A DNA stretch of 64,000 nucleotides from a virus (Duplodnaviria; Caudoviricetes): the IMG/VR virus record IMGVR_UViG_3300020187_001966. One strand, 5' to 3'. Made by a program: the position numbers and the translations under genes. The notes beneath the pieces are model-generated. The model ran no database searches. It saw only the letters and a program-made list of their open reading frames with translations, and had not been told where the DNA came from. Of the stretch, positions 703 through 48,212 are shown piece after piece (the first letter of the stretch is position 1; each line of letters opens with the position of its first letter).

Positions 703-777
703 GCTGATGTGGCCCAATGGTAAGGCAACTGATTTGTAATCAGTAGATTGGGAGTTCGATTCTCTCCATCAGCACCA
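703..777 (+). tRNA. tRNA-Thr(UGU)
   Basis: Acceptor GCTGATG/CATCAGC, anticodon arm ACTGA-TTTGTAA-TCAGT, TTCGA T loop, encoded CCA. Confidence 0.95.
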
Positions 778-818
778 TAATAAGCCGGTCGGGAGTTCAA
801 GTCTCTCAACAGGCACCA
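778..818 (+). pseudogene. 3' half of a tRNA (5' half deleted), possibly anticodon CAU
   Basis: Variable region, T arm GGGAG-TTCAAGT-CTCTC, acceptor 3' strand AACAGGC and ACCA present; no 5' strand GCCTGTT upstream. Confidence 0.75.
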
Positions 819-821
819 TAA

Positions 822-906
822 GCGGATGTGGTGGAATCGGTAGACACGCAGGTTTTAGGTACCTGTGCTTCACGGCGTGAGAGTTCGAGTCTCTCCATCC
901 GCACCA
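822..906 (+). tRNA. tRNA-Leu(UAG)
   Basis: GCGGATG/CATCCGC acceptor, CAGGT-TTTAGGT-ACCTG anticodon arm, type II variable arm, CCA. Confidence 0.95.
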
Positions 907-910
907 TAAT

Positions 911-985
911 GGTCCCTTCGTCTATCGGTTAGGACGCCAGGTTTTCAACCTGGAAAGAGGGGTTCAATTCCCCTAGGGACTGCCA
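911..985 (+). tRNA. tRNA-Glu(UUC)
   Basis: CCAGG-TTTTCAA-CCTGG anticodon arm, TTCAA T loop, CCA. Confidence 0.95.
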
Positions 986-990
986 AGTAA

Positions 991-1065
991 TGGGTCGTAG
1001 CATAATGGTAATGCACCGCTTTTTGGTAGCGTAGAGTATAGGTTCGAGTCCTATCGACCCAGCCA
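991..1065 (+). tRNA. tRNA-Gln(UUG)
   Basis: TGGGTCG/CGACCCA acceptor (U1-A72), loop TTTTGGT, CCA. Confidence 0.93.
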
Positions 1066-24061: not shown

Positions 24062-24124
24062 CAAATATACCCCGAACTACGATGATTCGGCACTAACATG
24101 ATATACTATAAGGACGAAAACAGT

Positions 24125-26425
24125 ATGAGCAATATTCAAGTAACAAAAAGAGATGGAAGTAAAGAGGCAATTGACCTCGAAAAGCTACATAAAGTAGCTT
24201 TTTATGCCTGTGAAGGTATTAATGGAGTTAGTCCTAGTCAAGTTGAGATGAAGAGTAACTTACATTTTTATAATGGTATTACAACTGATGACATCCAAGA
24301 AACACTTATTAAAAGTGCTTCAGAGTTAATTGAAGAAGATGCCCCAAACTATCAATGGGTAGCAGGGCGCCTTATTGTGTATCATTTGCGCAAACAAGTA
24401 TACGATAGCTTTGAACCTTGGCATATCTTAAAACTAATTACTCGTAATGTAGATGAAGGATGGTATGACCCAGCGTTGCTCACTGAATATACTGCTTCAG
24501 AATGGGACGAACTTAATGATTATATTAAACACGACCGTGATCAAGACTTTACATATGCCGCTATGGAACAATGGCGTGGCAAGTATCTTGTACAAAACCG
24601 TGTTACAGGTGAAAAACTAGAAACACCACAAATGGCATATATGCTAATTGCAGCGACATTATTTGGTAGTTATGACAAAGAAACAAGATTAAAATGGGTT
24701 AAGGATTATTACGATGCCATTAGTACTTTCGATATCAGTTTACCTACTCCTGTTATGGCAGGCGTGCGTACTCCGCAGAGACAATTTAGTTCGTGCGTTC
24801 TTATTGAAACTGGCGATAGTCTCGATAGCATTAACGCAACTACTAGTAGTATTGTCAAATACGTATCACAAAAAGCAGGAATTGGTATTGGAGCAGGAAG
24901 TATACGGGCTCTCGGCTCCCCCATACGTCGAGGTGACGCATATCATACCGGGGTCGTTCCTTTCTTTAAAATGTTCCAGTCTGCTACCAGATCATGTAGC
25001 CAAGGCGGCGTGCGAAACGGAGCAGCAACATTATATTACCCGATTTGGCATCTCGAAGCAGAAGATCTACTAGTACTTAAAAACAACAAAGGTATTGAAG
25101 ATAATCGTGTACGTCAAATGGACTACGGTGTACAGTTTAACAAACTAATGTATGAGCGTTTAATTACTGGCGGAGACATTACCTTATTCTCACCTAGTGA
25201 TGTACCAGGACTATACGAAGCATTCTTTGCTGACCAAGACGAGTTTAAACGTTTATATGAAACAGCAGAGCGTAATACAAGACTACGTAAGAAGACAATA
25301 CCAGCACTTGAGTTGTTTAGTCACTTTATGGGAGAACGCAAAGATACTGGACGCATTTACTTACAAAATGTTGACCATTCTAACGAGCATGGTTCGTTCA
25401 AAGCAGATATGGCACCTATTAAACAAAGTAACTTGTGTTGTGAGATTAATTTACCTACAAAACCACTTAATGACTTTAATGATCCAGATGGTGAGATTGC
25501 CTTATGTACACTAAGTGCTGTTAATTGGGGCAATGTACGTAAGCCAAGTGACTTTATCCGTATTGGTAAACTAGCAGTACGTGGGCTTGATGCTCTACTC
25601 AGTTATCAGAACTATCCAGTAATTGCGGCAGAAATGGCAACCATGGGTAGACGACCATTAGGTGTAGGTATTATTAACTTGGCATACTGGATGGCACGAA
25701 ACAATATGACATACAGTGAGCCTAATCTAGAAATGATTGATGAGTATGCTGAAGCATGGAGTTACAGTTTAATTAAAGCAAGCGCAGACCTAGCACAAGA
25801 GCAAGGCGCATGTTTGTGGAATGACCAAACAAAATATAGTGATGGTATCCTACCTATTGACACATATAAGAAAGATGTTGATGAACTAGTAGCACACAAA
25901 GAACGTATGCCATGGAAAGAACTAAGAGTACAATTAGCTAAAACAGGTATCCGTAACTCAACACTAATGGCTCTTATGCCTGCTGAAACGTCAGCACAAA
26001 TTAGTAATGCGACAAACGGTATTGAACCACCACGTAGTTTAGTAAGTATTAAACAATCAAAACATGGTGTACTAAAGCAAGTTGTGCCTGGTATCCATCA
26101 TCTCAAAAACAAGTATGAACTACTATGGGATCAGACATCACCAGAAGGATACTTACAGATTATGGCAGTGTTACAAAAATATATCGATCAAGGTATTAGT
26201 GTAAACACAAGTTATAATCCACAGCACTTCCCAGATGAGAAGATTCCAATGAGTAGTATGCTACAACATCTAATGATGTTCTACAAATATGGCGGCAAGC
26301 AGTTGTATTATTTTAACACATATGACGGAGCCGGCGAAATAGATATTGACAAACTGGAACAATCAAGTATAGTGGAAGATAATATAACAATTGAAGACGA
26401 TGAATGCGAAAGCTGTGTAATATAA
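24125..26425 (+). CDS. nrdA: Ribonucleoside-diphosphate reductase class Ia alpha subunit
   Basis: ATP cone (VTKRDG), FSSCVL, SNLCCEI, LMPAETS, C-terminal CESC. Confidence 0.97.
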   Translation: MSNIQVTKRDGSKEAIDLEKLHKVAFYACEGINGVSPSQVEMKSNLHFYNGITTDDIQETLIKSASELIEEDAPNYQWVAGRLIVYHLRKQVYDSFEPWHILKLITRNVDEGWYDPALLTEYTASEWDELNDYIKHDRDQDFTYAAMEQWRGKYLVQNRVTGEKLETPQMAYMLIAATLFGSYDKETRLKWVKDYYDAISTFDISLPTPVMAGVRTPQRQFSSCVLIETGDSLDSINATTSSIVKYVSQKAGIGIGAGSIRALGSPIRRGDAYHTGVVPFFKMFQSATRSCSQGGVRNGAATLYYPIWHLEAEDLLVLKNNKGIEDNRVRQMDYGVQFNKLMYERLITGGDITLFSPSDVPGLYEAFFADQDEFKRLYETAERNTRLRKKTIPALELFSHFMGERKDTGRIYLQNVDHSNEHGSFKADMAPIKQSNLCCEINLPTKPLNDFNDPDGEIALCTLSAVNWGNVRKPSDFIRIGKLAVRGLDALLSYQNYPVIAAEMATMGRRPLGVGIINLAYWMARNNMTYSEPNLEMIDEYAEAWSYSLIKASADLAQEQGACLWNDQTKYSDGILPIDTYKKDVDELVAHKERMPWKELRVQLAKTGIRNSTLMALMPAETSAQISNATNGIEPPRSLVSIKQSKHGVLKQVVPGIHHLKNKYELLWDQTSPEGYLQIMAVLQKYIDQGISVNTSYNPQHFPDEKIPMSSMLQHLMMFYKYGGKQLYYFNTYDGAGEIDIDKLEQSSIVEDNITIEDDECESCVI

Positions 26426-39697: not shown

Positions 39698-40846
39698 ATG
39701 AGAATTGAAAATGAAGTACTGTTGGACTACAGCGATGTCTTGATTCGTCCAAAGCGTAGCACATTAGGCTCACGCAAAGAAGTAAACTTAGAACGTGAAT
39801 TTACATTCCGTAATTATAACAAACAAGACATTATGTCTGGAGAATATGATTGGAAAGGTGTTCCAATTATGGCAAGCAACATGGATGGTGTTGGTACATT
39901 TGAAATGGCAGACAAACTTGCTGAAGGCAACATCTTTACATGTCTAGTTAAAACATATAGTGAACAAGATTTAATCAAATACTTTACATCTGATTTACCT
40001 GAGCGTAGTGACTATGTTGCTATGAGTATTGGTATTCAGGATCGTGACTTAAACAAATTTGAAAAAGTTTATACAGTATGTAAAGAAAATTTAAAATACG
40101 TTTGTATTGATGTGGCAAACGGATACAGTCAACGTTTTGTGGAGTTTGTGGGAGAATTTAAATTCCGCTTTCCTAAAGTAGTAATTATTGCTGGTAATGT
40201 GGTTACGGCAGATCAAACGCAAGAGTTAATACTAAATGGAGCAGACATAGTTAAAGTTGGTATTGGACCAGGTAGTGTATGTACCACTCGTATTCAAACT
40301 GGTGTGGGATATCCACAGCTCAGTGCCGTTATTGAGTGCGCTGATGCCGCTCATGGCCTTGGTGGTCATATTATTGCTGACGGTGGGTGTACCTGTCCTG
40401 GCGATATTGCTAAGGCTTTTGCGGGCGGGGCCGACTTTGTAATGCTAGGCGGTATGCTTGCTGGACACGATGAAGGTGGTGGTGACGTAATTACCCGATA
40501 CTATGAAACTAGTGAACTAGAATATCAAGTTGGCGAGCATTTGGCCAATTGTGTACATAAAGTAGAAGAAAAACAATTCATAAAGTTCTACGGAATGAGC
40601 AGTGATGCGGCAAACACTAAACACTTTGGCGGACTTAAAGAGTATCGTTCAAGTGAAGGACGTGAAGTGCTTGTGCCTTATCGTGGTGAAATTGCTAGAA
40701 CTGTGCAAAACATTCTGGGCGGCGTTCGCAGTACATGTACATACGTTGGTGCCAATACACTAAAGCAACTGAGTAAATGTACAACATTTATTCGTGTAAA
40801 CAACCAGTTTAATAAAACGTATGAGTCTACTACCACCAAGTTATAG
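39698..40846 (+). CDS. guaC: GMP reductase
   Basis: [47 protein letters not shown]. Confidence 0.95.
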
Positions 40847-40850
40847 TAGC

Positions 40851-40903
40851 TGCGCAATAACGCACAGTTGCGTTAAACGCATATCGAGTCTACGCAAAAT
40901 GCA
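40851..40903 (+). promoter_or_regulatory. Putative LysR-type operator array
   Basis: TGCG-N6-CGCA (40851), TGCGTTAAACGCA (40869) and TACGCAAAATGCA (40891): two T-N11-A boxes 22 bp apart. Confidence 0.45.
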
Positions 40904-40934
40904 GTAGTAAATCACTGAAATCCATGTTAAATAT

Positions 40935-41020
40935 AAGTGTGAACACAAAATAGTGTTTACACTTTTTTTATGAAATGACACCCTGAAAAGACGGGGGGTA
41001 TTGCTTTCCTCAAGCATTTT
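40935..41020 (+). ncRNA. Structured leader / candidate sRNA of micro-protein operon
   Basis: 12-bp hairpin + U-run, GC hairpin, and TGCTT-TCCTC-AAGCA hairpin with anti-SD-like loop. Confidence 0.35.
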
Positions 41021-41044
41021 AAAACTTAATCAAGGAAAAACAAA

Positions 41045-41224
41045 ATGTTTAACGACACATTCAACGGTCTTGTAAGTTTACTTGGAAATCCACTTCCAAC
41101 ACGGAAGTTCGAAAAAGAGATGCTTACATACGCAAAAACAGAATACGGAAAAGATTGGCAGTTTGCTTATCAATATATGCTAGATCATTCAGGTTCAGCA
41201 CCTAACATGGGAGTACATCTCTAA
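41045..41224 (+). CDS. Small protein (59 aa), first gene of coupled operon
   Basis: Hand-translated MFNDTFNG...YAKTEYGKDWQFAYQYML...; AAGGA RBS; TAATG coupling to next gene. Confidence 0.75.
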   Translation: MFNDTFNGLVSLLGNPLPTRKFEKEMLTYAKTEYGKDWQFAYQYMLDHSGSAPNMGVHL

Positions 41225-41481
41225 TGGCACATTATGTAATAGAAGCGTCAAGTTGGATTCAAGATGCAATCGAAGGATTCAATGACTTACGTAGAGCAAT
41301 GAAACTACGTGCAGAACGTAAAGCATCATACAAACAAACTTATAAAGAACTTAGCAAGTTAAACGACTATGAACTAAACGACATCGGCATTTGCCGTGGC
41401 GACATTAGAAACATTGCACGTGGTGATAGAACAATCAAACGTGGTATCGAAGTTAACGAAAACTTGAGAGGATCTATATAA
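41224..41481 (+). CDS. DUF1127 (YjiS-like) small protein
   Basis: TYKELSKLNDYELNDIGICRGDI. Confidence 0.88.
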   Translation: MAHYVIEASSWIQDAIEGFNDLRRAMKLRAERKASYKQTYKELSKLNDYELNDIGICRGDIRNIARGDRTIKRGIEVNENLRGSI

Positions 41482-41678
41482 TGACTGTAGCAACAATGAA
41501 ATCAAACACATGGGGAATTACATGTAAAACATGTGCCATTCTTTCAAAAGCAATTGTAGCAACTGGAATGTTTTTATGGGCATTTGGTGAGTCAGCTGGA
41601 AGAGCAAGAGCAGCAAGTGAATTATACCGTCAAGGGTATGTAGAAGAAGCAAGAAGATTAATGACGGAGAATAATTAA
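41481..41678 (+). CDS. Small protein
   Basis: Coupled; [20 protein letters not shown]. Confidence 0.7.
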
Positions 41679-41899
41679 TGACTGGTGATATAGCAACGTT
41701 TGGCGCAATGATTGGCGCAGGGTTAGCAACAATTGGAATGGGCGGAGCAGCCATTGGTGTTGGAATGATTGTAGGTAGTGTACTTAAAGTAATGCCTAAG
41801 AAAAGTGACACAGGCACAATGTTTGTTGGTGTAGCATTTGCGGAAGCATTAGGAATATTTGCATTCTTAGTAGCACTGCTATTAATGTTTGCTGTCTAA
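41678..41899 (+). CDS. atpE: ATP synthase subunit c-like protein with divergent polar loop
   Basis: [18 protein letters not shown] and [25 protein letters not shown]; RNP/RQP loop absent. Confidence 0.85.
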
Positions 41900-42120
41900 T
41901 GGTAGGTGATCAGCACATTGAAATATCAGCACAGGTAGTGCAGAAGTTAGGTTTCTATATGTTTGTAATTATGACTTCACTTATGGTAATATGTATAGCT
42001 TTTGGTTTCTATGCTGTTATTCAAAAATTTAACGAACCAAACTGGAAAGAAGTATGTATCGCAAAAGGCGGTGTGCCAGTACAATTAGAAAAGTCTTACT
42101 TCGACTGCAAAAAGATGTAA
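41899..42120 (+). CDS. Small membrane protein
   Basis: One TM, C-x14-C pair (CIAKGG...FDC). Confidence 0.65.
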   Translation: MVGDQHIEISAQVVQKLGFYMFVIMTSLMVICIAFGFYAVIQKFNEPNWKEVCIAKGGVPVQLEKSYFDCKKM

Positions 42121-42136
42121 CAAAGAGGAATATAAT

Positions 42137-42271
42137 ATGTTTACAAGATTTATGAAACTAATGGAATACAGAAGTTACTGTATGAGTATCAAGCAACTAC
42201 GAGACATGGGTATGAATGATAAAGCCAATGAAATCTCAGAGTTTAAACATAACATGTATAAAACAAGTTAA
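42137..42271 (+). CDS. Small protein (44 aa)
   Basis: Hand-translated MFTRFMKLMEYRSYCMSIKQLRDMG...; GAGGA RBS. Confidence 0.6.
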   Translation: MFTRFMKLMEYRSYCMSIKQLRDMGMNDKANEISEFKHNMYKTS

Positions 42272-42333
42272 TGTTAGATCCAGATCACACATACACAAAG
42301 CCAAAAGGCGAGAAGAAAAAAGGCGGTAAGTAA
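42271..42333 (+). CDS. Micro-ORF (20 aa, basic)
   Basis: TAATG-coupled MLDPDHTYTKPKGEKKKGGK before terminator. Confidence 0.4.
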   Translation: MLDPDHTYTKPKGEKKKGGK

Positions 42334-42351
42334 GCCGCAGTACAACAGAGT

Positions 42352-42375
42352 AAAGCACCACAAGGTGCTTTTTTC
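42352..42375 (+). terminator. Rho-independent terminator
   Basis: AAAGCACC-ACAA-GGTGCTTT + T-run. Confidence 0.75.
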
Positions 42376-42426
42376 TTGACTAATTAACTATCAGTGCTAT
42401 AAATATAGTTAACACACGGAGGCTAT

Positions 42427-42645
42427 ATGCAACATTCTATTGAGGATCTTCTAAGAAGACTTGAAGTAATGAAAGACAAAGCTATTCTGTTACATCGAGT
42501 TCGTAATGAGTTTAGTGAAATATCATATAAAGATTATGACAAAGCAGCTTGTCAAAATATTATAGATGATATACAAGCAATGGCATTGGGCATTGCGAAT
42601 GATAAAGAAGGTACTGATATTATTACTGAGATGGAATATAAATGA
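42427..42645 (+). CDS. Hypothetical protein
   Basis: GGAGG RBS, late promoter upstream. Confidence 0.7.
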   Translation: MQHSIEDLLRRLEVMKDKAILLHRVRNEFSEISYKDYDKAACQNIIDDIQAMALGIANDKEGTDIITEMEYK

Positions 42646-43196
42646 ACTTATCAGGTGATTTTTTAATCAGCATTCCAGCTGTAAATACTGGAACATTTAA
42701 TCGCAGTGTTGTTCTTATGAATAAGCACACTGGCGATGGAGCGTCTGGTTGGATAGTTAATAAACAATTAGATGATAAAATAACACAACGTTTACGCAAA
42801 GGTATGAATCTTACTCGTGACATACCATTATACTTTGGTGGTCCAGTAGACGTAAACAATGCTGTTGTTATACACAGTAATGATTTAAAATTACCTAGTA
42901 CAAGAAAACTTAATGATACACTAAGCATCACAAAAGACAAGAGTATTGTCAACGTAATGAACATTGGACAATTTCCTGAATACTGGAGAGTAATTGTTGG
43001 TAGAAGTTCATGGGGAGCAGGACAACTAGAAAGCGAAATACTTGGCAGCCGTACAAATGGCATTGGTACTTGGATGTCAATAGACTATACTGATCAGTTA
43101 ATGTGGCAAACAATGCCAAGTAATCAGTGGGAACGCAGTATTGAACTAAGTGCCACACAATTGACTAATAATATTTTAAAAATACCAAATATGTAA
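42642..43196 (+). CDS. YqgE/AlgH (DUF179) family protein
   Basis: F.RSVVL, G..GWIVNK, LYFGGPV, GRSSWGAGQLESEI. Confidence 0.88.
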   Translation: MNLSGDFLISIPAVNTGTFNRSVVLMNKHTGDGASGWIVNKQLDDKITQRLRKGMNLTRDIPLYFGGPVDVNNAVVIHSNDLKLPSTRKLNDTLSITKDKSIVNVMNIGQFPEYWRVIVGRSSWGAGQLESEILGSRTNGIGTWMSIDYTDQLMWQTMPSNQWERSIELSATQLTNNILKIPNM

Positions 43197-43254
43197 TTAT
43201 GTTAGCGCCAGCGTCAACACAAATGTGTAAATACGATGTGGCAAGGAGATACAT

Positions 43255-43455
43255 ATGTGTTCACCAGAATTGCGTAAAGAAGCTAATAGACTAAACTGGA
43301 TGATTAAAGGTCAACTTATTGACTCGTCCGAATCAGACTCCACAGTTGAAAGAATTTATCATTCATATTTTCAAAGACTTTGGAATAACAACGAGAACTA
43401 CCTTCATGAAGAAGGCTTTACCCAAGCGTGGGAGCAGCAATATGGTAGCCAATAG
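43255..43455 (+). CDS. Hypothetical protein
   Basis: AAGGAG RBS. Confidence 0.65.
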   Translation: MCSPELRKEANRLNWMIKGQLIDSSESDSTVERIYHSYFQRLWNNNENYLHEEGFTQAWEQQYGSQ

Positions 43456-43660
43456 AATAACAGAGCTAACTGAAGATGAACTAACATTTATGGAAGATTT
43501 ATTACTAACTGAGTTTAGTAAAGAAGCTGAAAAAGCAAAAACTTGGAAATCAAAAAACCATTACCAACTCCCACATGGAAAACAAAATAGAATACTAAGT
43601 TGTCTAAGCGCAGTTAGAAGTCAAAAACAACTTAAAAAGACATTAGCCACTAAGTGGTAA
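43442..43660 (+). CDS. Hypothetical protein
   Basis: Start reset to ATG 43442 (longer ORF overlaps the upstream gene). Confidence 0.55.
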   Translation: MVANRITELTEDELTFMEDLLLTEFSKEAEKAKTWKSKNHYQLPHGKQNRILSCLSAVRSQKQLKKTLATKW

Positions 43661-43661
43661 T

Positions 43662-43761
43662 TGGCTCTGGGGGTAGGATTCGAACCTACACGATAAATAT
43701 TTTGCGAACATCTACCACACGATAAACAGTCGTGCGTGTCTACCACTTTCACCACCCCAGA
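43662..43761 (-). tRNA. Non-canonical type II tRNA, anticodon GUU (Asn), 10-bp variable arm
   Basis: Reverse complement: TCTGGGG/CCCCAGA acceptor, G73, CCA; D arm GTG-AAAGTGGTAGA-CAC; CACGA-CTGTTTA-TCGTG; V arm GGTAGATGTT-CGCAA-AATATTTATC; GTAGG-TTCGAAT-CCTAC. Confidence 0.9.
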
Positions 43762-43768
43762 TCAATTT

Positions 43769-44611
43769 TTAGGCGGCTTTGTCTAAACTTTGTAGTTTAT
43801 CCAGTGCGGCAATCATACGTGTCATGCCAATGCCACCACCTACTCTTTGGAAGAAGTCAAACTTGAGGAACTCTTCTAGTTCTGCTTCTACACGTTCTTT
43901 ACCAAACAATTTAAACAGCAGCTCAGCATAGTCTCCGTCTACAATACTGTGGAATGTATCACGCATCATATCAACATCACAACTACGTTCTGCTGATCCA
44001 ATAGTTTCCATACCACCTAAGATAACATCCATCTTCTTAGCAGTATTGCCATCATCGTTACGTGCCATGTTCCAGAAAGGTGATGTTAGTTCTGGGAAGT
44101 CTGTAATTAAACAACTACCAAAGTTCATATCCATTGCTAATTCGTGTTGTGCGTCCATTTCAGTTGATTGACTTACACCAAAGTGTTTTTGCCAGTCGCT
44201 GTATGTTTTTTCTGTTAGTGGGTCAAAGCCCAAGTAATCACATAGTTCAATTTCCATCTTTTTAAGATCATCTACATCGCCCGGCATCTCAAACTCAAAC
44301 ATTGGGAAGATAATGTCGTGTCTGCCTGGTATAGCGTTTGGTTCCTGTCTATAGGACGTTGACACACAAAAAAAGCCCTTACTATCGGGCTTGCTTAATA
44401 ATTCATGTTCTAACCACATCTGGCCTGTTTGCGGTAATGGCCAAACCTGGTCTGCGTAATTGTATGTTGCTACATTGAACGGATCTTCACATGCGGCAAG
44501 TATGCTTAGTCTATTTTGGGTATGTACTTCTAAGAAGCCTTTGTCCAAAAAAAATGACCTTAAAAGGCCAACTGTGTCTGTAAATTTTTGTGGGTTTATG
44601 AGTTGCGTCAT
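43769..44611 (-). CDS. Class IIb aaRS catalytic-core-only protein, AsnRS-like
   Basis: Motif 1 LRSFFLDKGFLEVHT, LPQTGQMWLE, motif 2 YRQE...RH..FPMFEFE, ITDFP...PFW.M, METIGSAER, motif 3 GGGIGMTRM; no N-terminal OB domain. Confidence 0.85.
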   Translation of the reverse strand: MTQLINPQKFTDTVGLLRSFFLDKGFLEVHTQNRLSILAACEDPFNVATYNYADQVWPLPQTGQMWLEHELLSKPDSKGFFCVSTSYRQEPNAIPGRHDIIFPMFEFEMPGDVDDLKKMEIELCDYLGFDPLTEKTYSDWQKHFGVSQSTEMDAQHELAMDMNFGSCLITDFPELTSPFWNMARNDDGNTAKKMDVILGGMETIGSAERSCDVDMMRDTFHSIVDGDYAELLFKLFGKERVEAELEEFLKFDFFQRVGGGIGMTRMIAALDKLQSLDKAA

Positions 44612-44712
44612 CTTTTTTTCCTTTTCTGAAATTCAGCCTAAAAAAAATTAGCTCAAAAAAATTTGAGTGTGTTTTTTCTATCCAGTCTATTTAGTCTTTT
44701 CTATAATAAGGC

Positions 44713-44743
44713 TTGACATCCTCTTGTGTTTAGTATATAAATA
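44713..44743 (+). promoter_or_regulatory. Composite sigma70 / late promoter of tmRNA
   Basis: TTGACA-N17-TATAAA overlapping TATAAATA. Confidence 0.7.
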
Positions 44744-44747
44744 GACT

Positions 44748-45090
44748 GTAACGTTGAAGTGATTTGACGACTATACTGGACCCGGGGGCGGTACCCGGCG
44801 ACTCCACCATAAACACATTAGGTTTGAAATATAACCTCTCTTTCCCGAGATGATAACTCGATATAGAGGACCTAGAAATAGGGTAAAGAATAAGAGTGCT
44901 AGTGTGTTTTTGATGGGGTCGAAATAGGATCGACAGGTAGGATAGATGAGTGGAGTTACCGGGATATAAGCGCCGTTACCGCGAATAAACTTTCTAAATG
45001 CAAACGCAAATAGAGCGCCAGAAATGGCTTTAGCTGCCTAATTAGGTAAGTGGGGGTTTGTAACGCACCTAGCAACAGAAGCGTTACACT
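44748..45090 (+). ncRNA. ssrA: Two-piece (circularly permuted) tmRNA, tag ANANRAPEMALAA
   Basis: Acceptor piece ends CCGGGGGCGGTACCCGGCGACTCCACCA (44809); coding piece starts GGGGTCGAAATAGGATCGAC (44915); G3-U70 pair; tag 45000-45041. Confidence 0.92.
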
Positions 45091-45144
45091 ATGACGGCTG
45101 AAACATAGGTTAAAGTACAGCCAACACAAAAGGAAACCTAATTA

Positions 45145-46224
45145 ATGAAATTATTAAAACTATTTTCCGCAACATTATTAATGTTGGGGTCTTTAGCTGT
45201 GTCAGCACAAGCAGATGCACCTAAGGATAACATCACGGTCGGATTTATTTACGTCGGACCAACTGGTGACCACGGATGGACATACCGTCACGATATTGGT
45301 CGTCAGCAAGTAGAAGAAGCATACGGCGACAGAGTAACAACACGATTTGTTGAAAGTGTAGCAGAAGGTGCTGACGCTGAACGTGTAATGACACAAATGG
45401 CACTACAGGGCGCAGACATTATTTTTGCGACATCATTTGGATATATGGATCCAATAATGAACGTAGCAAAGAAGTTTCCAAACGTAAAGTTTGAACATGC
45501 TACAGGTTATAAATCATCTGACAACGTTGCTAACTATGGTTTGAAACTATACCAAGCAAGACACGTACAAGGTGTTGTAGCAGGTATGATGACAAAAACA
45601 AACAAAATTTGTTATATTGCTTCATTCCCAATTCCAGAAGTTATGCGTGAGATTAACACGTTCTTCTTGGGTGCACGTAAGTACAATCCAGATGTAGAAC
45701 TATCAATTGCGTGGGTTTACACATGGTATGATCCAGGTAAAGAAAAAGATGCGGCAACAGCATTGATTGACCAAGGTTGTGACATTGTAGCACAGCATAC
45801 TGACTCACCTGCTCCACTACAATCAGCAGAACAAGCAGGCGTACTTGGATTTGGACAAGCAAGTGATCAAATGAAGTTTGCTCCTAACGCACAATTGACA
45901 GCAACTATTGACAATTGGGGTCCTTACTATATTAAGAAAGTAGGACAAGTACTAGACGGTACATGGGAAACAGGCGATTACTTTGGACACATGAACGAAG
46001 ACGCTGTACAAATGGCACCGTTTGCTAACATGCCAGCTGACGTACAAGCAGAAGCACAGCGTGTAAAAGATGCTATTAGCGCAGGTGAGTTATTTGGATT
46101 TACAGGTCCAATTAACAAGCAAGACGGAACAGTGTTCCTGAAAGAAGGCGAAGTAGCAACTAGACAGCAACTAGACACTATGATGTTCTATGTCGAAGGC
46201 ATTACATCAAAGGTACCTGGTTAA
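45145..46224 (+). CDS. BMP-family ABC substrate-binding protein (purine nucleoside type)
   Basis: Signal peptide, GFIYVGP.GDHGWTY.HD.GR, IFATSFGY, WYDP.KE..AA..LID.G. Confidence 0.93.
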   Translation: MKLLKLFSATLLMLGSLAVSAQADAPKDNITVGFIYVGPTGDHGWTYRHDIGRQQVEEAYGDRVTTRFVESVAEGADAERVMTQMALQGADIIFATSFGYMDPIMNVAKKFPNVKFEHATGYKSSDNVANYGLKLYQARHVQGVVAGMMTKTNKICYIASFPIPEVMREINTFFLGARKYNPDVELSIAWVYTWYDPGKEKDAATALIDQGCDIVAQHTDSPAPLQSAEQAGVLGFGQASDQMKFAPNAQLTATIDNWGPYYIKKVGQVLDGTWETGDYFGHMNEDAVQMAPFANMPADVQAEAQRVKDAISAGELFGFTGPINKQDGTVFLKEGEVATRQQLDTMMFYVEGITSKVPG

Positions 46225-47084
46225 TGATTCCAGTAATTGATTTACAAGCATCAGACGCTTTAGATCGCATTGACGAAGCCTACACAACAGTAGGCTTCGC
46301 AGTGTTTACAAATGCGTTAACTGAAACACATCAACAAGACATCAAGTCTTGGCAAGAACAAATGAAAGCATTCTTTGAACTGCCAATGGATAAAAAACAA
46401 AGTTATCCTTATAACGCAGATACTAACTTGGGTTATAGCATGGTAGGCGACGAAAACGTTGATCCTACAGCACCAAAAGATATCAAAGAAAGTTTTAACT
46501 ACAACAATACACGTATGCCAGAAGACCTTTGGCCTACAGAATTACCAGAGTTTAAAGCAACAGCCTTACAAAGTATTGACATTGCAGATAAACTTACTAT
46601 GAAAATATTATCTAAGTTTGATACTATTTTAGATAGTGGAACTACACTAGTAGATTCACATTTACAACCATTTAACACAACAAGAGTTATTCACTATCCA
46701 GCATATACTGGACCAGTACAAGATAAACAAATGCGTATAGGAGAACACAGTGACTACGGCACTATTACATTACTATGGCAGATTAATGATGTTCCTGGGC
46801 TTCAAGTCCAAGATCTCAAAGAAGAGTGGCACCCGGTCCCGTATGCGGATGATGGAGTAGTTGTTAACATTGGTGACTTACTACAGCGTTGGACTAACGA
46901 TTATTTTAAAAGTACTAAACATCGTGTAGTTAACAGTCATATACATCAACAAAGATATTCGATGCCACACTTTGTAGACCCAACACCCGGCACAATAGTA
47001 CAAAACTTACGTGACGAACAATCAAAATATGAGCCCATTGAGTCAAAAGAATATTTGATGTGGCGTCTAGCACAGAGTTATTAA
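46224..47084 (+). CDS. IPNS/PcbC-like 2OG-Fe(II) oxygenase
   Basis: IPVIDL, HYP, GEHSDYGTITLL, VNIGDLLQRWTND..KST.HRV, RYS.P.F. Confidence 0.92.
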   Translation: MIPVIDLQASDALDRIDEAYTTVGFAVFTNALTETHQQDIKSWQEQMKAFFELPMDKKQSYPYNADTNLGYSMVGDENVDPTAPKDIKESFNYNNTRMPEDLWPTELPEFKATALQSIDIADKLTMKILSKFDTILDSGTTLVDSHLQPFNTTRVIHYPAYTGPVQDKQMRIGEHSDYGTITLLWQINDVPGLQVQDLKEEWHPVPYADDGVVVNIGDLLQRWTNDYFKSTKHRVVNSHIHQQRYSMPHFVDPTPGTIVQNLRDEQSKYEPIESKEYLMWRLAQSY

Positions 47085-47085
47085 A

Positions 47086-47601
47086 ATGAAACAATACATA
47101 ACAAGTTACCAAAACTTTCCAATTGATGGAATTGATTATAAGGATGTAGCAAGTTTATGCGCATCACAAGATGGTTACGCAGAAGCAAATAACTTTATAT
47201 ACAGTAACTTACTAAAATATTGTCCTGTAGATAAAATTATTGGTATTGATGCTCGTGGATTTATATTTGCTAGTGTGTTTGCTCATCGTACAAGAGGCCC
47301 ACTAGTACTAGCACGGAAACCTGGTAAACTTCCTGGTAAGATAGCTGAAAAAGAATACGATTTAGAATACGGAACAAATAAATTACAAATACAAGCAGAT
47401 AGTATTGAAGCAGGAGACCGTTGCCTTATTATTGATGACTTAATGGCAACTGGTGGCACAATGTGCGCAGTATTGGATTTAGTACAAGAATTAAATGCTT
47501 TTACTGTGGCAGTAGCAACTGTTATTGACCTACCTAAATTAGGTGGAAGCGACTTAGTAAAAGCTCGTGGTATACCATTTTACACAGGTGTTGAATACTA
47601 A
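47086..47601 (+). CDS. apt: Adenine phosphoribosyltransferase
   Basis: FPIDGIDYKD, GIDARGF, RKPGKLPG, YDLEYG, IIDDLMATGGT. Confidence 0.92.
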   Translation: MKQYITSYQNFPIDGIDYKDVASLCASQDGYAEANNFIYSNLLKYCPVDKIIGIDARGFIFASVFAHRTRGPLVLARKPGKLPGKIAEKEYDLEYGTNKLQIQADSIEAGDRCLIIDDLMATGGTMCAVLDLVQELNAFTVAVATVIDLPKLGGSDLVKARGIPFYTGVEY

Positions 47602-48212
47602 TGCAACACAATACACATGGATTTGAGATAGAAGAAAACGAACATGATGTTGTTGATAAAGACTATCCAGAAATTAAAGCAAGAGTAGAACAAACTGAAT
47701 GGGTAGTAAAATTAAAAAACCAAGCAGGTGAAGAATGGAAAACAAAATGTACAGATCACTATGCTTGGAAAGCTGCAGAATATATTATGGAATTGGAGAA
47801 GCAACTAATGGTATTTAGAACAGGCGCAGACTTATTTGAAGTAGGTGACTTTACAAGTCACGCAGGAAATAAACTAGCATGGAAGATTGAGTGCGATGCT
47901 ATACGCCCAGAGTGGTGGGACGGATTAGCACGTATGATTATGGATTATCAAACAGAACCTTTTAGTAAGGTAGTTGGTATTCCACGTGGCGGAATGGCAT
48001 TAGCACACGCTATGGAAAAATATGTAACACCAGGCGATCATCCTTGGATGGTTGTGGATGATGTATATACTACAGGTACAAGTTTTAGAGAATTCTGTAC
48101 AGACAATCAAACAATGTTTGCATACAAGTGGTGCGCATTTGCTCGTAAGCCTATTGAAGGCAATGAGTCACATGACGTAAGAGCATTGTTTACTATGCCA
48201 CAAAGTACTTGA
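47601..48212 (+). CDS. Type I PRTase-like (PyrE-like) domain with N-terminal extension
   Basis: LFEVGDFTSHAG, GIPRGG, PRPP loop VVDDVYTTGTS. Confidence 0.75.
   Translation: MQHNTHGFEIEENEHDVVDKDYPEIKARVEQTEWVVKLKNQAGEEWKTKCTDHYAWKAAEYIMELEKQLMVFRTGADLFEVGDFTSHAGNKLAWKIECDAIRPEWWDGLARMIMDYQTEPFSKVVGIPRGGMALAHAMEKYVTPGDHPWMVVDDVYTTGTSFREFCTDNQTMFAYKWCAFARKPIEGNESHDVRALFTMPQST

What the first reader, a model, noticed from the sequence alone, without database searches (positions are those of the whole stretch)
43662..44611. Anticodon-domain-less AsnRS-like enzyme coupled to an abnormal tRNA-Asn: candidate orthogonal aminoacylation pair
Seen: a 280-aa minus-strand ORF has all three class II aaRS motifs. 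Its class IIb signatures (LPQTGQMWLE, ITDFP...M, ETIGSAER) are closer to AsnRS (TQSGQLYLE) than to AspRS (PQSPQ) or EpmA (QTSPE). It begins directly at motif 1, so the N-terminal OB-fold anticodon-binding domain is absent. Its stop codon is 7 nt from the 5' end of a GUU-anticodon tRNA with a giant variable arm, so the two are almost certainly one transcript. Known: many alphaproteobacteria lack AsnRS and make Asn-tRNA indirectly via non-discriminating AspRS plus GatCAB; archaeal AS-AR and bacterial EpmA are core-only aaRS paralogs that do not charge tRNA. Inference: the phage may carry a self-contained direct Asn-charging route in which the minimal synthetase recognises the acceptor stem and variable arm instead of the anticodon, independent of host GatCAB. 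The alternative is that it is an asparagine synthetase supplying Asn next to the tRNA.
Basis: partly seen in the sequence, partly recalled or inferred. Interest (0 to 1): 0.93.

Follow-up and report, generated by a model that had tools for sequence, protein, structure and literature searches.

The report
Phage mini-synthetase with its own tRNA
A large marine phage carries an asparagine-type tRNA-charging enzyme that lacks its anticodon-reading domain, followed seven bases later by an oddly built asparagine tRNA; the tRNA was never seen without the enzyme, but nobody has tested what the pair does.

Summary
ORF 43769-44611(-) is a 280-aa class IIb synthetase catalytic core with no anticodon-binding domain. 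It is closest in sequence and fold to AsnRS, but it belongs to a separate, deeply branching family. Seven bases after its stop lies a 100-nt tRNA (43662-43761, -). This tRNA is a chimera: an Asn-type acceptor end (U1-A72, G73, CCA) and a GUU anticodon on a tRNA-Leu-like body, with U37 and a 10-bp variable arm. Covariation supports the fold.

In marine phage contigs the coupling is nearly obligate and one-sided. About 81 of 85 enzyme loci have the tRNA. Of 80 loci found through the tRNA alone, 78 have the enzyme, 2 were too short to tell and none lacks it.

New here: the same family (42-63% identical) occurs without any such tRNA in two huge phages, in giant-virus-like contigs and in many cellular MAGs. 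Most of those MAGs also have a full AsnRS. An asparagine-synthetase role, as in archaeal AS-AR, therefore stays a serious rival.

Best reading (about 0.4): a private Asn-charging pair. No paper describing it was found. This scan has noted the same cassette in other phage genomes, and follow-up agents reached similar verdicts there.

The parts
43769..44611 (-). Gene for 'X', a 280-aa class IIb aminoacyl-tRNA-synthetase catalytic core of AsnRS type with no anticodon-binding domain. Motif 2 (YRQE...GRH...FPMFEFE), the pre-motif-3 stretch ETIGSAER and motif 3 (GGGIGMTR) are intact.
   Evidence: AlphaFold model: mean pLDDT 96.1.
43762..43768 (-). 7-nt spacer (AAATTGA) between the TAA stop of X and tRNA position 1. 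No terminator was predicted between gene and tRNA.
   Evidence: In 85 related loci the tRNA usually starts 7-25 nt after the stop.
43662..43761 (-). 100-nt chimeric type-II tRNA. It has U1-A72, G73, an encoded CCA (43662-43664), a tRNA-Leu-like D arm and a GUU anticodon.
   Evidence: It scores 108.3 bits on model R1.
43725..43727 (-). Anticodon GUU (tRNA positions 35-37 in raw count, i.e. 34-36) in loop CUGUUUA. Position 37 is U instead of the usual purine.
   Evidence: GUU is invariant in 47 distinct tRNAs, while positions 32, 33, 37 and 38 vary.
43692..43716 (-). Variable arm: a 10-bp stem with a 5-nt loop (CGCAA). Relatives have arms of 13-32 nt, mostly capped by GNRA-like loops.
   Evidence: The lower stem covaries (pairs 47-75, 48-74 and 50-73 have changes on both sides).
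44612..44687 (-). Leader and intergenic region upstream of X, with a purine-rich ribosome-binding stretch just before the ATG. It is shared divergently with the tmRNA gene. The promoter was not identified with confidence.
   Evidence: the only hits are two weak sigma-70-like sites further upstream, fewer than in shuffles.

Best explanation
The gene and the tRNA form one cassette, probably transcribed together. X is an active adenylate-forming enzyme of the AsnRS type. It most likely attaches asparagine to the 3' end of the downstream tRNA. Lacking an anticodon-binding domain, it would read only the acceptor end (U1-A72, G73, CCA), which is copied from ordinary tRNA-Asn.

The tRNA then decodes AAY codons through its invariant GUU anticodon. 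Its Leu-type body, with a large D loop and a long variable arm, would keep host class IIb enzymes and GatCAB off it. The phage would gain a private source of Asn-tRNA that needs neither host AsnRS nor the glutamine-consuming AspRS/GatCAB route.

Shown: the anatomy, the conservation, the covariation and the one-sided coupling. Inferred: the amino acid, the charging itself, the insulation role of the tRNA body and the benefit to the phage.
For: 1. X keeps the catalytic residues. The motif 2 and motif 3 arginines, the acidic pair D195/E202, and R209 are nearly invariant in 50 diverse members.
2. X is AsnRS-like where AspRS differs. It has Leu67-Glu68 for AspRS Lys198-Gln199 and Glu106 for Asp233, and it keeps the Arg of GSxR. 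The roles of these residues are taken from the AspRS/AsnRS literature as I know it.
3. AsnRS gives the best sequence and fold matches.
4. Coupling is strong. About 81 of 85 phage loci with X have the tRNA directly downstream. Of 80 loci found through the tRNA pattern alone, 78 have X upstream, 2 were too short to tell and none lacks it. X without the tRNA does exist (L028, L059/L060, L122, L123). The tRNA thus depends on X, not the reverse.
5. The cassette is shared by Prochlorococcus phages P-SSM2, P-SSM5 and P-SSM7 and by the window's group, although the neighbouring genes differ. In P-SSM2 it was the only tRNA match found.
6. The tRNA is under selection as a tRNA. 97.7% of cells are paired, and 18 of 28 pairs have compensatory changes. 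U1-A72, G73 and GUU are invariant in 47 distinct sequences, while the rest of the acceptor stem changes.
7. The acceptor stem resembles bacterial tRNA-Asn, and the D arm matches the window's own tRNA-Leu at 20 of 23 positions.
8. Anticodon plus G73 is the known Asn identity set. U1-A72 with a small D loop is the GatCAB identity set (PMC9976931 and PMC2330236). The big D loop here should therefore disfavour GatCAB.
9. No normal tRNA-Asn was found in 657 kb around 80 cassettes.
10. There is a precedent: an ABD-less CysRS (cysS*) always found with an irregular tRNA (PMC5389517).
Against: 1. The family is highly conserved between phages and cells, and the phage proteins have no specific insertion or basic patch. 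X is very acidic (net charge -22, pI 4.5).
2. Cellular members, two huge phages and giant-virus-like contigs lack any long-arm GUU tRNA. The family's common activity therefore cannot depend on this tRNA.
3. At least 17 of 25 cellular genomes with the family also have a full AsnRS. This is the pattern reported for the archaeal AsnRS-like asparagine synthetase.
4. As far as I know, class IIb enzymes stripped of the anticodon domain charge tRNA very poorly.
5. Motif 3 (GGGIGxTR) resembles E. coli AsnA more than AsnRS.
6. U37, and in a few sequences C33, are unusual for an efficient decoder.
7. The motif 2 loop does not covary with acceptor-stem pairs 2-4.
Confidence: 0.42

Rival explanations
1. 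X is an ammonia-dependent asparagine synthetase. It would be a functional analogue of archaeal AS-AR ('AsnRS2') and of bacterial AsnA, independently derived from an AsnRS-like core. It activates the beta-carboxylate of free aspartate. The neighbouring tRNA is an extra tRNA-Asn charged by host enzymes, and the cassette is an 'asparagine supply' module.
For: X has the core-only architecture of AS-AR, and the folds are alike (Z 23.4-23.7, about 241 aligned residues). The family occurs widely in cells without a special tRNA. It co-occurs with a full AsnRS in at least 17 of 25 genomes, including DPANN archaea and Chlamydiae that lack AsnA, AsnB and any AS-AR-family match over its cut-off. This matches the rule, as I recall it from the original AS-AR report, that archaea with AsnRS also carry the truncated paralogue. 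Motif 3 is AsnA-like. The protein is acidic with no added RNA-binding part. A pocket with one Arg and one Glu could hold either an Asn amide or the alpha groups of a reversed Asp (inference).
Against: This reading does not explain the tRNA's odd body, its fixed position directly after X, or why it is never seen without X. Seven of the 25 genomes lack AsnRS but have gatB, intact or fragmented. Free Asn would be useless for translation there, and AsnA-bearing genomes are reported always to use AsnRS (PMC2330236). Weeksellaceae already have AsnB, and some also AsnA. X scores far below every AS-AR and AsnA model cut-off and is closer to true AsnRS than to AS-AR.
Confidence: 0.3
2. X acts on the tRNA, but not by plain aminoacylation. 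One possibility: it amidates Asp already placed on the tRNA by a host non-discriminating AspRS, giving an ammonia-driven, GatCAB-free route. Another: it adds an amino acid to the wobble base, as the ABD-less GluRS paralogue GluQ-RS does on tRNA-Asp.
For: The tRNA keeps GUU and G73, the marks read by AspRS/AsnRS-type anticodon domains that X lacks, and it keeps U1-A72. The tRNA depends on X. The triplet GUU is invariant while the rest of the loop drifts. GluQ-RS (my own knowledge) is a precedent for an ABD-less paralogue acting on an anticodon loop.
Against: No known class II enzyme does either reaction. Cellular members have no such tRNA. C33 variants would disfavour queuine insertion. Nothing in the sequence points to this over simpler readings.
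Confidence: 0.1
3. X is a tRNA-independent ligase with another acceptor, either a protein (as with EpmA) or a metabolite linked to nucleotide synthesis. The tRNA is a passenger or a processing or stability element at the 3' end of the X message.
For: In 11 MAG loci of several phyla, and in one metagenome contig, X lies beside pyrD and an OPRT-OMP-decarboxylase fusion. In the window it sits among nucleotide-metabolism genes: GMP reductase/IMPDH, a PnrA-like binding protein, a phosphoribosyltransferase and RNR. HisZ (my own knowledge) is a precedent for a synthetase paralogue working with a phosphoribosyltransferase.
Against: A mere passenger or RNA-end element would not keep a perfect cloverleaf, an invariant GUU, U1-A72, G73 and CCA under covariation. 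The phage neighbours are not conserved. X keeps Asp/Asn-type pocket residues rather than Lys-type ones. The pyr-linked genomes keep dihydroorotase-like genes, so X does not fill an obvious gap there.
Confidence: 0.1

Closest known systems
Asparaginyl-tRNA synthetase (class IIb), catalytic domain (e.g. PDB 8H53, 2XTI, 1X54, 9SH8)
   Same: It has the same fold (Z 27-28, rmsd 2.1-2.6 A over about 250 residues). It gives the best profile matches. It shows AsnRS-type residues at the positions that separate AsnRS from AspRS.
   Different: X has no N-terminal OB anticodon-binding domain. It scores only 29 bits on the asnS model, whose cut-off is 343. It forms a separate clade on a long branch. The motif 1 Pro is replaced, and motif 3 reads GGGIGxTR.
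ABD-less CysRS (cysS*) paired with irregular selC* tRNA-Cys in Desulfobacterales (Mukai et al. 2017, PMC5389517)
   Same: Both are synthetase paralogues without an anticodon-binding domain that always occur with a non-canonical, long-armed tRNA. This is the same logic as the phage cassette.
   Different: That pair is class I and cellular. Its tRNA has a non-cognate (opal) anticodon and an 8/4 shape. Here the anticodon is cognate, the shape is 7/5 type II, the host is a phage, and the enzyme family also lives without the tRNA.
Archaeal asparagine synthetase A (AS-AR, 'AsnRS2'; PDB 3P8T, 1NNH)
   Same: It is a core-only Asx-synthetase paralogue of about 290 aa with a similar fold. It is found together with a full AsnRS.
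   Different: X is not a member of that family (23.9 bits against a cut-off of 389). X is closer to true AsnRS. AS-AR has no associated tRNA.
EpmA/PoxA/GenX (EF-P lysyl ligase)
   Same: It is a core-only class IIb paralogue with a similar fold (Z 24).
   Different: EpmA is Lys-type and X is Asx-type: X has Arg209 where EpmA/LysRS have Glu. X scores 13.6 bits against a cut-off of 287.
Type II tRNAs (Leu, Ser, Tyr) and canonical tRNA-Asn
   Same: The D arm and long variable arm are like tRNA-Leu. The acceptor stem, G73 and GUU are like tRNA-Asn.
   Different: To my knowledge no known cellular tRNA-Asn is type II. Position 37 is U, A or C instead of t6A-bearing A. The variable arm reaches 32 nt.

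Membership tests
Canonical AsnRS | Class IIb catalytic core with motifs 2 and 3 | tested here: met
   PF00152 at E 7.6e-17. Model pLDDT 96. Z 27-28 to AsnRS cores.
Canonical AsnRS | N-terminal OB-fold anticodon-binding domain | tested here: not met
   The protein starts at profile position 29 of the catalytic domain. No PF01336 match in any of five phage records.
Canonical AsnRS | Score over the curated asnS equivalog cut-off | tested here: not met
   TIGR00457: 29.1 bits against a cut-off of 342.6. NF003037: 27.6 bits against 414.
Canonical AsnRS | Asn-type pocket residues (no Lys at AspRS 198; Glu for Asp233; Arg kept) | tested here: met
   Alignments: L67, E68, E106 and R209, nearly invariant in the family. 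The residue roles come from my knowledge of the literature.
Canonical AsnRS | Forms Asn-tRNA(Asn) | not testable with these tools
   Needs an enzyme assay.
Archaeal asparagine synthetase A (AS-AR) | Score over the NCBIfam PRK06462 cut-offs | tested here: not met
   NF005055: 23.9 bits against a cut-off of 389. Among 50 members the best E-value is 2.1e-9.
Archaeal asparagine synthetase A (AS-AR) | Core-only protein of about 290 aa that co-occurs with a full AsnRS | tested here: inconclusive
   The architecture is met. AsnRS is over its cut-off in at least 17 of 25 cellular genomes that carry the family, but absent from 7.
Archaeal asparagine synthetase A (AS-AR) | Converts Asp + NH3 + ATP to Asn | not testable with these tools
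   Needs an assay or complementation of an asnA asnB strain.
Bacterial AsnA | Match to the asnA model | tested here: not met
   No TIGR00669 hit. The family profile scores E. coli AsnA at 2.0 bits.
EpmA (GenX/PoxA) | Score over the genX cut-off and Lys-type pocket | tested here: not met
   TIGR00462: 13.6 bits against a cut-off of 286.9. X has Arg209 where EpmA has Glu.
ABD-less synthetase with a dedicated irregular tRNA (cysS*/selC* type) | Synthetase lacks the anticodon-binding domain | tested here: met
ABD-less synthetase with a dedicated irregular tRNA (cysS*/selC* type) | Enzyme and irregular tRNA always occur together | tested here: inconclusive
   Met in marine phage contigs: about 81 of 85 enzyme loci have the tRNA, and 78 of 80 tRNA loci have the enzyme. 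Not met in huge phages or in cellular members.
tRNA-Asn | GUU anticodon and G73 (the AsnRS identity set), plus U1-A72 | tested here: met
   Invariant in 47 distinct sequences. Identity rules from PMC9976931.
tRNA-Asn | Type I body with a 4-5 nt variable loop and A37 | tested here: not met
   Variable region of 13-32 nt, a Leu-like D arm, and U37 in the window.
Type II tRNA | Base-paired long variable arm, 3-bp D stem and large D loop | tested here: met

The most novel reading that the evidence does not exclude
This is a natural, self-contained synthetase/tRNA pair, very abundant in ocean phages. A 280-aa AsnRS core charges a purpose-built type-II tRNA(GUU) by its acceptor end alone, and the Leu-type body insulates the tRNA from the host's Asx enzymes. 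The phage thereby runs its own asparagine decoding channel, independent of host AsnRS and of the glutamine-dependent GatCAB route.
Probability: 0.4. Interest if true: 0.85.

Novelty: new variant of a known kind. Interest (0 to 1): 0.72.

Why it matters
If X charges this tRNA, it would be among the smallest natural class II synthetases that work on a tRNA. It would also be a ready-made minimal synthetase/tRNA pair for genetic-code engineering. It would show how phages of nitrogen-starved ocean bacteria secure one aminoacyl-tRNA.

The cassette is very common. It is also present in three cultured Prochlorococcus phages, so tests are feasible.

If X is instead an asparagine synthetase, it is a third, independent recruitment of an Asx-synthetase core to amino-acid synthesis. 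It would be spread through CPR bacteria, DPANN archaea, Chlamydiae, giant viruses and phages. In that case the odd tRNA still needs an explanation.

Tried and rejected
1. ARAGORN alone undercounts the tRNA. It found 43 of 84 and often gave the wrong anticodon, because the arm is too long. I replaced it with my own structural parse and with covariance model R1.
A scan with P0196 found nothing.
3. I could not obtain an AS-AR sequence for a residue-by-residue comparison. The paper is not held, AsnA does not reach AS-AR by sequence, and no AS-AR-family match over the cut-off turned up in 31 genomes. The tree therefore lacks AS-AR and the archaeal and eukaryal AsnRS and AspRS.
4. A pattern search for a long-arm GUU tRNA in 25 cellular genomes gave only matches that do not look like tRNAs.
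5. No free-standing anticodon-binding protein was found in five phage records.
6. I considered that X replaces a decayed GatCAB in genomes G006 and G008, and dropped the idea. gatA also carries stops in G006 and no GlnRS is present, so assembly errors are the likelier cause.
7. I considered that X is an ATP-driven dihydroorotase in the pyr-linked genomes, and did not find support. Dihydroorotase-like genes are present there.
8. No covariation was seen between the motif 2 loop and acceptor pairs 2-4.
9. Metatranscriptome contigs from two studies cover the cassette and bridge the gene/tRNA junction. Contigs cannot prove transcription, ends or strand, so this is presence only.
10. Eight literature searches found no description of the pair. 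Sullivan et al. 2010 only lists a 'tRNA ligase' gene cluster.
11. Host status for AsnRS, GatCAB and AsnA/B in SAR11-type and Prochlorococcus hosts could not be checked, because no genome handles were available.
Full report
What is there. On the minus strand, ORF 43769-44611 encodes a 280-aa protein, called X here. Pfam places residues 14-278 on positions 29-300 of the 308-position class II D/K/N catalytic-domain model (E 7.6e-17). The protein is therefore the catalytic core and nothing else. NCBIfam gives only weak partial matches, all more than ten-fold below their cut-offs: asnS 29 bits, non-discriminating aspS 27, archaeal-type asparagine synthetase 24, EpmA 14.

Seven bases after the TAA stop a 100-nt tRNA begins (43761 down to 43662). 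Rfam scores it at 47 bits. ARAGORN finds it but reads a wrong anticodon. Folding gives a clean cloverleaf with a fifth arm: a 7-bp acceptor stem starting U1-A72, a 3-bp D stem with a large loop, anticodon loop CUGUUUA (GUU, U at 37), a 10-bp variable stem with a 5-nt loop, a normal T arm, G73 and an encoded CCA. No terminator is predicted between gene and tRNA.

The record behind the window is a 65-kb viral fragment judged 19% complete. Nearly all genes lie on the plus strand and G+C is uniform at 0.35-0.40. The record also holds a tRNA array and an alpha-type two-piece tmRNA directly upstream of X on the other strand. It is a large marine phage. I did not pin down its exact group or host.

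The enzyme. An AlphaFold model built on 50 diverse relatives is confident (mean pLDDT 96.1). Foldseek puts it among AspRS and AsnRS cores. The VIA second look ranks AsnRS first: human, Brugia, Pyrococcus and Thermus AsnRS at Z 27.2-28.2, rmsd 2.1-2.6 A over about 250 residues. Archaeal AspRS follows at Z 26.1-26.5, EpmA at 24.2, LysRS at about 23-24 and archaeal asparagine synthetase AS-AR at 23.4-23.7.

The family profile finds AsnRS best in the PDB (1e-14), then archaeal AspRS (1.7e-13), then AS-AR (5.5e-8). Against E. coli paralogues it scores AsnRS 35.9 bits, EpmA 24.5, LysRS 23.5, AspRS 18.2 and AsnA 2.0.

The catalytic arginines of motifs 2 and 3, the acidic pair before motif 3, and R209 are nearly invariant. 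At the positions that, to my knowledge, separate AsnRS from AspRS, X has Leu-Glu for Lys198-Gln199 and Glu106 for Asp233. Two departures from true synthetases stand out. The motif 1 proline is Gln. Motif 3 reads GGGIGxTR, which resembles E. coli AsnA (GGGIGQSRL) more than AsnRS.

A search of 1.84 billion representative proteins returns only 685 matches at E 0.001 or better, nearly all 260-300 aa long. In a quick tree, 88 representatives form one clade on a long branch (SH-aLRT 99). That clade is sister to E. coli AsnRS plus AspRS and lies apart from LysRS and EpmA. X thus belongs to a distinct class IIb subfamily, not to any named one.

The tRNA. I recovered the homologous tRNA in 80 related loci, giving 47 distinct sequences. 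On my structure, 97.7% of cells pair and 18 of 28 pairs show changes on both sides. No shuffle and no slid register comes close. U1-A72, G73 and the triplet GUU never change. The other six acceptor pairs, the anticodon stem and the variable stem all vary by compensation.

Loop positions 32, 33, 37 and 38 drift: CUGUUUA, CUGUUAA, UUGUUUC, CCGUUUA, CUGUUCA. The variable region comes in two sizes, 13-17 nt and 28-32 nt, mostly capped by GNRA-like loops.

The D arm matches the window's own tRNA-Leu(UAG) at 20 of 23 positions. The acceptor stem resembles an ordinary bacterial tRNA-Asn. The molecule is therefore a chimera: the two Asn identity sets on a Leu-type body. Anticodon plus G73 is the AsnRS set. 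U1-A72 is the GatCAB determinant, with extra D-loop bases acting against GatCAB (PMC9976931 and PMC2330236).

Coupling. X homologues at 65-68% identity sit in Prochlorococcus phages P-SSM2, P-SSM5 and P-SSM7, annotated 'tRNA ligase'. Each is followed within about 10 bases by an 87-88-nt tRNA(GUU), although the neighbouring genes differ. In IMG/VR, 596 stretches encode relatives. Of the best 80 plus the five phage-record loci, about 81 carry the tRNA directly downstream. The exceptions are the two huge phages, L028 and L059/L060.

In the reverse test, 80 viral loci were pulled out by a pattern in the tRNA alone. Of these, 78 have X directly upstream, two are too short to tell and none lacks it. 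No normal-length tRNA(GUU) lies in the 657 kb around those cassettes, though many ordinary tRNAs do. The tRNA therefore seems to need X, whereas X can exist alone.

The wider family. This is the main new result and it cuts the other way.
- Two huge phages (735 kb and 484 kb) carry X at 44-48% identity, with normal 74-77-nt tRNA-Asn genes elsewhere and no long-arm GUU tRNA. X is the only class IIb gene in all five phage records, and none has AsnB.
- Diverged representatives lie in giant-virus-like or bacterial contexts without an adjacent tRNA.
- A scan of species-representative genomes found 76 loci. Six are marine-phage-like contigs that carry the tRNA. The other roughly 70 are 42-63% identical and come from Weeksellaceae/Moheibacter, Chitinophagales, Aureispira, Chlamydiae, Dependentiae, several CPR phyla, DPANN archaea, Alphaproteobacteria and Myxococcota. 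Some lie on megabase contigs.
- None of these has the odd tRNA nearby or elsewhere in 25 genomes searched. One very divergent member (L191) is followed about 250 nt later by a normal tRNA-Asn.
- The proteins align end to end with the phage ones, and the phage proteins have no extra segment. The window's X is very acidic (net charge -22).
- Of 25 genomes, at least 17 have a full AsnRS, 11 have AsnB, one or two have AsnA, 13 have an intact gatB and none has a match over the AS-AR model's cut-off.
- No single complementarity appears. Some genomes (DPANN, Chlamydiae) have AsnRS but no known Asn synthetase. Seven lack AsnRS and have gatB, intact or fragmented. Weeksellaceae have everything.

Weighing. 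The one-sided dependence, the copied Asn acceptor end, the invariant GUU, the absence of any other phage tRNA-Asn and the AsnRS-like pocket fit a private charging pair. The cysS*/selC* case shows that nature has built such pairs before. The Leu-type body would then serve as insulation. Class II enzymes approach tRNA from the variable-arm side (my own knowledge), and GatCAB measures the D loop.

Against this, the family clearly works without this tRNA in most lineages, it looks unchanged in phages, and its distribution recalls the archaeal AsnRS-like asparagine synthetase. The pocket residues do not settle the matter, because an Arg-Glu pair could hold either an Asn amide or the alpha groups of a reversed aspartate (inference).

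I therefore put the charging pair at about 0.42, an asparagine synthetase with a host-charged tRNA at 0.30, other tRNA-linked chemistry at 0.10 and an unrelated ligase role at 0.10.

Novelty. Eight literature searches found no account of the cassette. The 2010 cyanophage comparison only lists the gene. Other first readers and follow-up agents of this scan noted the same cassette in other phage genomes with similar verdicts. The cellular distribution, the huge-phage counter-examples, the reverse co-occurrence test and the pyrimidine-gene linkage do not appear in those notes.

Noticed in passing
window 44688-45090 (+): An alpha-type two-piece (permuted) tmRNA gene lies divergent from X. It scores 127 bits on RF01849, and ARAGORN reads the tag as ANANRAPEMALAA. 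In two metatranscriptomes its contig depth is far above the neighbours, and related variants replace the intervening segment 44809-44915 with about 22 nt. Phage tmRNAs of this kind are described for Melnitz-like phages (PMC9004378).
   Followed up: partly
L125, L126, L130, L136, L137, L143, L157, L160, L165, L166, L180; L088: In cellular MAGs of several phyla, and in one metagenome contig, the X homologue lies next to dihydroorotate dehydrogenase and a fused OPRT-OMP decarboxylase. That pyrD is the genome's main copy. The reason is unknown. The genomes keep dihydroorotase-like genes.
   Followed up: partly
L191:3001-4093: The most divergent homologue found (42% identity, in an unclassified bacterial MAG) is followed about 250 nt downstream by a normal 73-nt tRNA-Asn(GUU).
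   Followed up: no
window 39698-48212: X sits among nucleotide-metabolism genes: GMP reductase/IMPDH (39698-40846), an AlgH-like protein (42642-43196), a PnrA/Bmp-type nucleoside-binding protein (45145-46224), a 2OG-Fe(II) oxygenase (46224-47084) and a phosphoribosyltransferase (47086-47601). RNR alpha lies at 24098-26425.
   Followed up: partly
window 703-1065 (+): An array of four ordinary tRNAs (Thr-UGU, Leu-UAG, Glu-UUC, Gln-UUG). The tRNA-Leu shares its D arm almost exactly with the odd tRNA(GUU).
   Followed up: partly
LR756501/LR756508 (L106, L110, L115): The two huge phages carry other over-long tRNAs: Pro-UGG at 99 nt, Leu-AAG at 99 nt, Thr-UGU at 88 nt and Val-UAC at 86 nt. These may contain introns or long arms.
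   Followed up: no
window 43769-44611 (-), residues 28-33 and 258-266: Family-wide, the 'invariant' class II motif 1 proline is replaced by Gln. Motif 3 is GGGIGxTR, as in AsnA, rather than GxGxGx(D/E)R.
   Followed up: partly
G006, G008 (MAGs behind L190, L189): gatB, and in G006 also gatA, appear broken by many stop codons, and no GlnRS is present. This is more likely long-read assembly error than real decay.
   Followed up: partly
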